A stretch of 12,636 bases of DNA from Octopus sinensis (taxonomy: Eukaryota), in assembly GCF_006345805.1 (NCBI RefSeq), contig NW_021826552.1, positions 1 to 12,636 of the forward strand, given 5' to 3'. Positions 7,316 to 7,812 of the stretch are shown here, piece after piece (position 1 is the stretch's first letter; each line of letters starts with the position of its first letter). Made by a program: the position numbers.

Positions 7316-7812
7316 ATATATATAGTGACGCATATTTGCCATTTGAATATGGCTAACCCATAAGGGTGGATGCTACTGTAGTTTGTAGCCCCAGGAAGAT
7401 ATCTCCTCCAGCTGGCTATAGACACACTATCTGTGTCCTCTCAGTATTTGTGAAGGGGAGTCATCCTCCCCGTCTTCAACTCATGATACACACGTACCCG
7501 AGTTTCAAGGTGTTTACCTTTCATCAGCGTGTGACAATCATGGTTGTCGACGAGAAGTCAGATCCCTTCACAAATACATATACTTTTTCCAGTGTCGATT
7601 GACACTGATATTGAAAAAGTGAAATCAAACAATGATAAATATCAGTGCGAGTTATAAACAGTAGCGGTAACACATCGTGACGCATATTTGGAGGAGATAT
7701 CTTCCTGGGGCTACAAACTACAGTAGCATCCACCCTTATGGGTTAGCCATATTCAAATGGCAAATATGCGTCACGATGTGTTACCGCTACTGTTTATAAC
7801 TCGCTCTGAGAT

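What the first reader, a model, noticed from the sequence alone, without database searches (positions are those of the whole stretch)
7325..7690. 352-nt hammerhead-bearing unit that reads like one turn of a circular or tandem RNA (candidate retrozyme family)
Seen: the unit 7325-7676 runs straight into a repeat of its own first 14 nt. The neighbouring inverted copy (7689-7818) independently reads across the same end-to-start junction, so the template was circular or tandemly repeated. The unit has no meaningful ORF and one intact hammerhead. Known: animal non-LTR retrozymes and Penelope-like-element pLTRs are units of a few hundred nt carrying minimal type I hammerheads; retrozymes yield circular RNAs and are thought to be mobilised by PLE enzymes. 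Inference: this is a ribozyme-processed non-autonomous retroelement. I cannot tell whether this family has been described.
Basis: partly seen in the sequence, partly recalled or inferred. Interest (0 to 1): 0.9.

Follow-up and report, generated by a model that had tools for sequence, protein, structure and literature searches.

The report
Hammerhead retrozyme-like insertion in TA microsatellite
A 352-base non-coding unit with a hammerhead self-cleaving RNA motif sits in a TA repeat as slightly more than one full turn plus an inverted partial copy, which fits a known class of small ribozyme-bearing mobile elements (animal retrozymes) rather than anything new in kind.

Summary
Unit 7325-7676 (352 nt) runs into a 14-nt repeat of its own start. 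The inverted copy 7689-7818 matches the end-to-start junction at 128 of 130 positions. A type I hammerhead motif lies on the minus strand with cleavage at 7495/7494. It was the only hit of my descriptor in the window, and 0 of 2000 random windows matched it equally well. The circle folds far better than shuffles (z = -8.4) and has no real ORF. (TA)n lies on both flanks.

Best reading: one insertion of a non-autonomous hammerhead retroelement of the animal non-LTR retrozyme kind. It was copied from a longer-than-unit template, either circular or multimeric. Its insertion anatomy matches what is described for Penelope-like elements: partial tandem, head-to-head 5'-truncated inverted copy, microsatellite target.

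Caveats:
- Rfam calls no hammerhead.
- The 10.1-11.1 pair is A-U, not G-C.
- There is no second full unit.
- No eukaryotic genome could be searched, so copy number, tandem arrays and a PLE partner are untested.

It is a new member of a known kind, of moderate-to-low interest.

The parts
7245..7324 (.). Left flank: (AT)n microsatellite, 41.5 copies, 88% matches
   Evidence: Tandem Repeats Finder; perfect runs listed
7325..7676 (-). Copy A: one full 352-nt turn of the unit. The sense (hammerhead) strand is the minus strand. GC 0.42, non-coding.
7677..7690 (-). 14 nt of the neighbouring turn, identical to 7325-7338. This is a partial tandem at the 5' side of copy A in sense orientation.
7481..7542 (-). 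Type I hammerhead motif. Helix I is 6 bp (7533-7528 / 7494-7489), with a possible 5-bp extension (7542-7538 / 7486-7482) beyond an internal loop. CUGAUGA is 7527-7521. Helix II is 5 bp with loop AAAC. GAAA is 7506-7503. Helix III is 2 bp with tetraloop UCGG.
   Evidence: descriptor scan; folds; no Rfam match
7494..7495 (-). Predicted self-cleavage site, after A17 (7495) and before C1.1 (7494)
   Evidence: N17 = 7495. Inferred from the motif; no RNA data.
7444..7577 (-). 14-bp perfect stem (7444-7457 with 7564-7577) that closes the arm carrying the hammerhead. It is part of the branched, highly paired fold of the circle.
   Evidence: self-BLAST (unit 120-133 and 240-253, 14/14); circular MFE
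7689..7818 (+). Copy B: inverted, 5'-truncated partial copy with its sense strand on plus. It covers unit positions 309-352 then 1-86 and so reads across the junction. It holds no hammerhead. It joins copy A head-to-head with a 2-nt overlap.
   Evidence: 128/130 identical; differences at unit positions 317 and 322 only
7820..8036 (.). Right flank: (TA)n microsatellite, 109.5 copies, 82% matches
   Evidence: Tandem Repeats Finder

Best explanation
This is one insertion of a small non-coding retroelement whose 352-nt unit carries a type I hammerhead ribozyme on the minus strand. That makes it an element of the animal non-LTR retrozyme kind.

Proposed mechanism:
1. Source copies are transcribed into longer-than-unit RNA (inferred).
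2. The hammerhead cuts at the site equivalent to 7495/7494, probably better when two motifs pair through their quasi-palindromic helix III (inferred).
3. Monomers are circularised by a host RNA ligase (known for other retrozymes, not shown here).
4. A circular or multimeric RNA was reverse-transcribed at a nick in a (TA)n microsatellite. The DNA shows the template was longer than one unit and had no single fixed 3' end.
5. Priming occurred from both sides of the break, leaving copy A (1.04 turns) and an inverted 5'-truncated copy B joined head-to-head. The geometry is shown; the enzymology is inferred.
6. The enzyme was most likely that of a Penelope-like element, possibly a TA-targeting one (inferred from the layout and the target only).
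For: - Junction read twice. The 14-nt repeat follows the unit, and the inverted copy matches the end-to-start junction at 128/130, E = 5e-65.
- The two copies end at different points of the circle. A ends at unit position 1; B ends 44 nt further on. Neither ends at the hammerhead site. So the template was not a cleaved linear monomer primed at its 3' end.
- Hammerhead motif: 1 hit in the window and 0 of 2000 random windows at equal helix lengths. Its architecture (helix I 6 bp, helix III 2 bp plus tetraloop) fits the 'canonical' metazoan type I form in PMC4209133 (passages) and PMC7229834 (section 15).
- Unit length 352 nt and GC 0.42 fall within the published 150-450 bp and <50% GC. Mussel retrozymes are 350-390 bp (PMC7229834 sections 13, 14).
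- Circular MFE is -127.4 kcal/mol against -83.3 +/- 5.3 for 200 dinucleotide shuffles, z = -8.4.
- No ORF.
- Partial tandem plus an inverted 5'-truncated copy at the 5' end is the layout described for PLE insertions. Hydra-clade PLEs carry hammerheads, occur in Mollusca and insert into (TA)n (PMC8557442 passages and section 11).
- Both flanks are (TA)n.
- A and B are identical over 116 nt. Their only differences sit in the 14 nt of B nearest its flank, as expected from one event.
- An isolated pair of the 63-nt motif prefers the double-hammerhead fold: -44.1 against 2 x -20.3 kcal/mol.
Against: - Rfam's hammerhead models give no match at any threshold tried.
- The 10.1-11.1 pair is A-U, whereas G10.1-C11.1 is called highly conserved (PMC4209133 passage), so activity may be low or lost.
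- In full-length folds the active conformation is not the MFE. It costs +5.6 kcal/mol in the circle and +6.0 for the double hammerhead in a dimeric transcript.
- Only 1.04 turns plus 0.36 of an inverted turn are present, not the tandem array that defines retrozymes. Li et al. 2026 (preprint, section 11) regard monomers as possibly immobile offspring.
- No other copy or relic of the unit is in the window.
- No PLE gene is in the window. The only reverse transcriptase is a frameshifted LINE whose relatives carry APE endonuclease and PHD domains. LINE machinery could also give an inverted 5' segment by twin priming (recalled knowledge).
- About 4.8% of the window is (TA)n-like, so landing there has roughly a 1-in-20 chance without any specificity.
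- No host genome, transcriptome or repeat library could be searched.
Confidence: 0.72

Rival explanations
1. The unit is not an independent family. It is an internally deleted or terminal (pLTR/UTR) piece of one autonomous Penelope-like element, left here by that element's own abortive integration.
For: The layout (partial tandem, inverted 5'-truncated copy, microsatellite target) is the one described for PLEs themselves (PMC8557442 passages). Li et al. 2026 find retrozyme consensus sequences homologous to PLE pLTRs in Xenopus.
Against: The sequence closes on itself at 352 nt in two independent reads, so no coding part lay between end and start of the template. The hammerhead has a helix III and a 5-bp helix II. 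[quoted passage not shown] No RT/GIY-YIG frame is in the window. If retrozymes are PLE derivatives, this rival differs from the best explanation only in degree.
Confidence: 0.12
2. It is a relic of a longer hammerhead-bearing satellite array that was cut down and partly inverted by DNA rearrangement. It is not a discrete retrotransposition event.
For: Hammerhead repeats are classically found as satellite-like arrays (PMC7229834 sections 13, 15). Only 1.04 turns remain, and inversions occur within arrays.
Against: (TA)n lies on both sides, which looks like one split microsatellite. A and B are identical over 116 nt, which argues against an old decayed array. The joint is a 2-nt overlap between non-corresponding unit positions (14 and 86), as in microhomology joining of two cDNAs. 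No further relics lie nearby.
Confidence: 0.08
3. It is a DNA copy of an exogenous or autonomously replicating viroid-like circular RNA (of the animal, or of a virus or microbe living with it), captured once by a host reverse transcriptase.
For: It has circular topology, about 350 nt, a hammerhead, no ORF and very strong self-pairing in both polarities (z = -8.4 and -7.0).
Against: Only one polarity has a ribozyme. No other ribozyme family was found on either strand at E<=10 and no second hammerhead by descriptor. The hammerhead architecture is the metazoan genomic type (PMC4209133 passages). A 33-nt stretch of the motif has 0 matches in 185,579 prokaryotic species genomes.
Confidence: 0.03
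4. It is a chance hammerhead look-alike inside an ordinary local duplication/inversion, or an assembly artefact.
For: Rfam gives no hammerhead match. The 10.1-11.1 pair is non-canonical. Only a single locus is available.
Against: 0 of 2000 random windows reach the same motif. The fold has z = -8.4. The joint is not a perfect fold-back: unit position 14 meets position 86, which is not what a simple palindromic read chimera gives.
Confidence: 0.03

Closest known systems
Metazoan non-LTR retrozymes (Cervera & de la Pena 2020, NAR, PMC7229834), e.g. mussel repeats of 350-390 bp and axolotl Rtz_353
   Same: Non-coding unit of a few hundred nt, GC below 50%, one type I hammerhead per unit, and helix III of 2 bp with a tetraloop. 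End-to-start continuity is present and the predicted circle is strongly self-paired.
   Different: Here there is only 1.04 turns plus an inverted partial copy, not an array. The 10.1-11.1 pair is A-U. No RNA evidence exists. No sequence comparison with published families was possible, and their sequences are in supplements that were closed.
Penelope-like elements, especially the Hydra clade (Craig et al. 2021, MBE, PMC8557442)
   Same: The insertion anatomy matches: partial tandem, inverted 5'-truncated copy at the 5' end, and one end reaching 44 nt further (compare the 30-40-bp 'tail'). The target is (TA)n, a hammerhead is present, and the clade occurs in Mollusca.
   Different: There is no RT/GIY-YIG ORF. 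The unit is 352 nt instead of roughly 3 kb. The hammerhead is not the minimal PLE form.
Amphibian satellite 2 / newt hammerhead repeats and other hammerhead satellites (as reviewed in PMC7229834 section 15)
   Same: The unit is about 330-350 nt, helix III is short, and the motif probably acts as a dimer.
   Different: Those are very large arrays with shown transcripts. This is a dispersed single insertion in an invertebrate-like genome.
Viroid-like satellite RNAs with hammerheads
   Same: Size, circular logic, self-pairing, and a possible single/double hammerhead switch.
   Different: This one is encoded in chromosomal DNA, has a ribozyme in one polarity only, and shows no evidence of RNA-RNA replication.

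Membership tests
Metazoan non-LTR retrozyme | A type I hammerhead motif in the unit | tested here: met
   The core CUGAUGA / GAAA / UA and three helices (6, 5 and 2 bp) sit on the minus strand. There was 1 hit in the window and 0 of 2000 random windows. Caveat: no Rfam match.
Metazoan non-LTR retrozyme | Short non-coding unit (150-450 bp), GC < 50%, no LTR/PBS/PPT | tested here: met
   352 nt and GC 0.42. The longest ATG frame on the circle is 39 or 56 aa. No Pfam match. PBS/PPT were not searched for specifically.
Metazoan non-LTR retrozyme | Head-to-tail tandem copies (dimers to multimers) and many copies in the genome | tested here: inconclusive
   The end-to-start junction is read twice, but only 1.04 turns are present. 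No other copy is in the window. The host genome could not be searched.
Metazoan non-LTR retrozyme | Highly self-paired predicted circular RNA | tested here: met
   Circular MFE -127.4 kcal/mol, z = -8.4 against 200 dinucleotide shuffles, 64% of bases paired.
Metazoan non-LTR retrozyme | Expressed as linear and circular monomer RNA; hammerhead self-cleaves | not testable with these tools
   No transcriptome and no bench. Folding alone puts the active fold 5.6-6.0 kcal/mol above the MFE.
Metazoan non-LTR retrozyme | Co-occurrence with autonomous PLEs in the same genome | not testable with these tools
   No PLE is in the window. If the host is an octopus (one named partial hit; otherwise my recall), PMC13282606 lists 31 recently active PLE families in O. 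vulgaris (passages).
Hammerhead ribozyme, type I (Rfam Hammerhead_1 and relatives) | Score at or above the Rfam gathering threshold | tested here: not met
   0 matches at gathering score on the whole window. No hammerhead row at E<=10 on 7200-7900 or on 7465-7565.
Hammerhead ribozyme, type I (Rfam Hammerhead_1 and relatives) | Conserved core nucleotides and a non-G at position 17 | tested here: met
   C3-A9 = CUGAUGA, G12-A14 = GAA, A15.1-U16.1, A17.
Hammerhead ribozyme, type I (Rfam Hammerhead_1 and relatives) | G10.1-C11.1 pair at the base of helix II | tested here: not met
   It is A7520-U7507. G-C is described as highly conserved in PMC4209133 (passage).
Autonomous Penelope-like element | ORF with telomerase-like RT and GIY-YIG endonuclease | tested here: not met
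   No such frame is in or beside the unit. The only RT (5295-5973) has relatives with Exo_endo_phos + RVT_1 + PHD, and none of the 73 hits lists GIY-YIG.
Autonomous Penelope-like element | Partial tandem (pLTR) and inverted 5'-truncated copy at the 5' end; microsatellite target | tested here: met
   14-nt partial tandem, 128-nt inverted copy, (TA)n on both flanks. The chance of hitting (TA)n is about 0.05.
Autonomous Penelope-like element | Minimal hammerhead of pLTRs (no or palindromic helix III, helix II 7-8 bp, extra nucleotide between 9 and 10.1) | tested here: not met
   Helix II is 5 bp, there is no extra nucleotide, and helix III is 2 bp with tetraloop UCGG, which is self-complementary only with G-U pairs.

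The most novel reading that the evidence does not exclude
The 352-nt unit is the DNA footprint of a viroid-like circular RNA that replicates on its own in an animal (or in a virus or microbe living with it) and was captured once by a host reverse transcriptase. A milder and likelier novel reading (my estimate about 0.3): the locus is a clean single-event record of a TA-targeting Penelope-like enzyme copying a circular hammerhead RNA from both sides of a break. That would be direct structural evidence of how animal retrozymes integrate.
Probability: 0.04. Interest if true: 0.85.

Novelty: new member of a known kind. Interest (0 to 1): 0.35.

Why it matters
Animal retrozymes are known as a class. 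Who mobilises them is argued from co-occurrence and from pLTR homology in frogs (PMC7229834 section 17; the 2026 preprint, section 11).

In the main texts I read, neither retrozyme paper reports a microsatellite target or inverted 5'-truncated copies for retrozymes. The term search found 0 occurrences of 'microsatellite' and 'inverted' in PMC7229834. One search found one occurrence of each in the preprint, both unrelated to insertion sites.

If other copies of this family repeat the layout seen here, it would tie retrozyme integration to PLE-type, perhaps Hydra-clade, machinery by anatomy. It would also add cephalopods, if the host is one, to the taxa with retrozymes. My two searches found no paper on that ('hammerhead ribozyme' + 'octopus'; 'retrozyme' + 'cephalopod'). 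As a single locus it is an ordinary member of a described class.

Tried and rejected
Searches that found nothing:
- Rfam at three settings found no hammerhead and no other ribozyme. The weak rows (mir-297, pestivirus UTR and others) all fall on the TA repeats and are composition artefacts.
- Self-BLAST of the unit against the window found no further copy. Hits beyond the three expected ones are 10-25 nt with E >= 0.044.
- ARAGORN found no tRNA-like head.
- An exact scan of 185,579 prokaryotic species genomes with a 33-nt stretch of the motif found 0 matches. That collection cannot hold the host, so this only argues against a bacterial source.

Context checks:
- The upstream reverse transcriptase is not a PLE. 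It matches RVT_1 and PHD. Of its 73 relatives, several list the APE endonuclease domain Exo_endo_phos and none lists GIY-YIG.
- Host identity stayed open. There is one named partial hit to Octopus vulgaris (81% over 34% of the query), plus my recollection that the repeat at 4401-4853 / 11118-11481 looks like an octopus SINE, which comes from no call.
- An exon-like ORF search gave one unnamed GATA-type protein.

Ideas considered and dropped:
- A target-site duplication cannot be read inside TA repeats.
- A bulged nucleotide after A9 would not restore a G-C pair at 10.1-11.1 (checked by eye).
- A simple palindromic assembly chimera is unlikely, because the joint links unit positions 14 and 86.

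Not checked:
- Any eukaryotic genome, transcriptome or repeat library.
- The closed collections metagenome contigs and viral contigs.
- Supplementary files. The Hydra family lists and hammerheads of PMC8557442 files S1/S2, and supplementary figures S4-S9 of PMC7229834, may bear on family membership and on the proposed integration model.

Papers seen:
- PMC7229834: outline with abstract, sections 13, 14, 15, 17, and passages.
- PMC8557442: section 11 and passages.
- Preprint 10.64898/2026.07.22.740005: outline with abstract, section 11 part 1, and passages.
- PMC4209133: passages only.
- PMC13282606: passages only.
- All other titles: search listings only.
- Twin priming of LINE-1 and tolerance of A-U at 10.1-11.1 are recalled, not read.

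Full report
**What is there**

The window has no N. It is rich in microsatellites and retroelement debris. Between an (AT)n tract (7245-7324) and a long (TA)n tract (7820-8036) lie 494 bases of unique sequence.

Positions 7325-7676 form a 352-nt unit. The next 14 nt (7677-7690) repeat its first 14 nt exactly. From 7689 to 7818 the sequence is the reverse complement of unit positions 309-352 followed by 1-86. It matches a script-made unit+unit junction at 128 of 130 positions (E = 5e-65; also I23).

So the end-to-start junction is read twice, in two orientations.

**The hammerhead**

On the minus strand the sequence reads as follows:
- helix I 5' strand: 7533-7528
- CUGAUGA: 7527-7521
- helix II: 5 bp with loop AAAC
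- GAAA: 7506-7503
- helix III: 2 bp with tetraloop UCGG
- U16.1, then A17 at 7495
- helix I 3' strand: 7494-7489

A descriptor I wrote finds this and nothing else on either strand of the window. It found 0 of 2000 first-order-Markov random windows at the same helix lengths and 10 of 2000 at loose lengths.

This architecture is what Cervera & de la Pena call the canonical metazoan type I hammerhead: helix I 6 bp, helix II about 4 bp, helix III 1-2 bp with a small loop (PMC4209133 passages). [quoted passage not shown] It is not their minimal PLE form.

Evidence against a working ribozyme:
- Rfam gives no hammerhead match on the whole window at gathering score. It also gives none at E<=10 on 701 nt or on 101 nt.
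- The 10.1-11.1 pair is A-U, where G-C is described as highly conserved.

The helix III segment ACUCGGGU is self-complementary if G-U pairs are allowed. Two isolated 63-nt motifs prefer the double-hammerhead fold (-44.1 against 2 x -20.3 kcal/mol). In full-length folds the active forms are not the minimum. They cost +5.6 kcal/mol in the circle, where CUGA pairs with UCGG, and +6.0 in a dimeric transcript.

**The unit as an RNA**

- GC is 0.42.
- The circular minus strand folds to -127.4 kcal/mol against -83.3 +/- 5.3 for 200 dinucleotide shuffles (z = -8.4). The plus strand gives z = -7.0.
- A perfect 14-bp stem (7444-7457 / 7564-7577) closes the arm that carries the hammerhead.
- Read round the circle, the longest ATG frame is 39 aa (plus) or 56 aa (minus). 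The longest frames have no Pfam match.
- No other ribozyme family appears on either strand.

**Geometry of the insertion**

I take the hammerhead strand as sense.
- Copy A runs on the minus strand from 7690 to 7325. It is 14 nt of one turn followed by a full turn, and its 3' end abuts the left TA tract.
- Copy B runs on the plus strand from 7689 to 7818. It is 5'-truncated, and its 3' end abuts the right TA tract.
- The two 5' ends meet head-to-head with a 2-nt overlap.

The two 3' ends lie at different points of the circle; B reaches 44 nt further than A. Neither is at the hammerhead site. The template was therefore longer than one unit and had no single fixed 3' end. It was a circle or a multimer, not a cleaved monomer primed at its end.

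A and B are identical over 116 nt. Their two differences (unit positions 317 and 322) lie within the 14 nt of B nearest its flank. Two random changes would both fall there with a probability of about 0.012 (my arithmetic). This points to one event with an error-prone start, not to two old insertions. Both ends read (TA)n-GTGA from the flank inward. With two ends this is only a note.

**Comparison with what is known**

- Metazoan non-LTR retrozymes are tandem repeats of 150-450 bp with GC below 50% and one type I hammerhead each. They are expressed as self-paired circular RNAs. Mussel units are 350-390 bp (PMC7229834 sections 13, 14, 17).
- PLE insertions are partial tandems, often with an inverted 5'-truncated copy at the 5' end and a 30-40-bp tail at one end. 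They show microsatellite bias (PMC8557442 passages).
- The Hydra clade carries hammerheads, occurs in Mollusca and inserts into (TA)n (section 11).
- A 2026 preprint argues from co-occurrence and pLTR homology that retrozymes are PLE derivatives, and notes that solo monomers are common.

The locus fits the retrozyme definition in unit properties and the PLE description in insertion anatomy.

It fails or leaves open three things:
- It is not an array.
- Its RNA and its activity are unknown.
- Its family could not be counted.

No PLE gene is nearby. The neighbouring RT (5295-5973, plus strand, frameshifted) belongs to an APE-RT-PHD LINE. About 4.8% of the window is (TA)n-like, so the target alone is weak evidence.

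**Verdict**

It is a new member of a known kind.

The host is probably a cephalopod. That rests on one named Octopus vulgaris partial hit and on my recall of its SINE. Octopus vulgaris is reported to hold recently active PLE families (PMC13282606 passages). I found no paper on cephalopod retrozymes.

The decisive tests are a host-genome search, an empty site, RNA ends and in vitro cleavage. None could be run here.

Noticed in passing
window 1040-1561 (+): An exon-like open frame of 173 aa, with His/Gln/Asn runs, is 51% identical over 92% of its length to an unnamed 644-aa protein. That protein carries GATA-N and GATA zinc-finger Pfam domains. The window may lie in or beside a GATA4/5/6-like gene.
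   Followed up: partly
window 4876-6806 (+), tail 6918-6952: This is a frameshifted LINE. RVT_1 pieces lie at 5295-5717 and 5758-5973, and a PHD finger in 5980-6492. Relatives carry Exo_endo_phos + RVT_1 + PHD. It is followed by an (AATCA)n tract. It is not a PLE and is separated from the unit by about 300 nt of other sequence.
   Followed up: partly
window 4401-4853 and 11118-11481; also 238-275 and 11047-11084: Two direct copies of a SINE-like repeat, 85-93% identical in four blocks, with an internal microsatellite, plus a third fragment (D8, D11-D13, D16). ARAGORN finds no tRNA-like head. It looks to me like an octopus SINE, but that is recall only.
   Followed up: no
window 8154-8510 (+): An open frame with two to three C2H2 zinc fingers (Pfam zf-C2H2, E = 2.8e-10). 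It may be a retroelement or gene fragment just right of the TA tract.
   Followed up: no
window 7320-7328 (+) and 7823-7815 (-): Both outer ends of the insertion read (TA)n-GTGA from the flank inward. At the B end the first G is not what copy A has at that unit position. This may be a preferred or non-templated start of reverse transcription.
   Followed up: partly
window 9094-9143: A perfect 25-nt tandem duplication (D15).
   Followed up: no
window ~2940-3005, 9527-9610, ~11900-12045 and several (TA)n tracts: Dense tetranucleotide and dinucleotide microsatellites: (CATA)n, (CTAT/CTGT)n, (GTAT)n. The (CATA)n and (GTAT)n tracts form long imperfect inverted repeats across the window (I1-I22). 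These are composition effects, not a structure.
   Followed up: no
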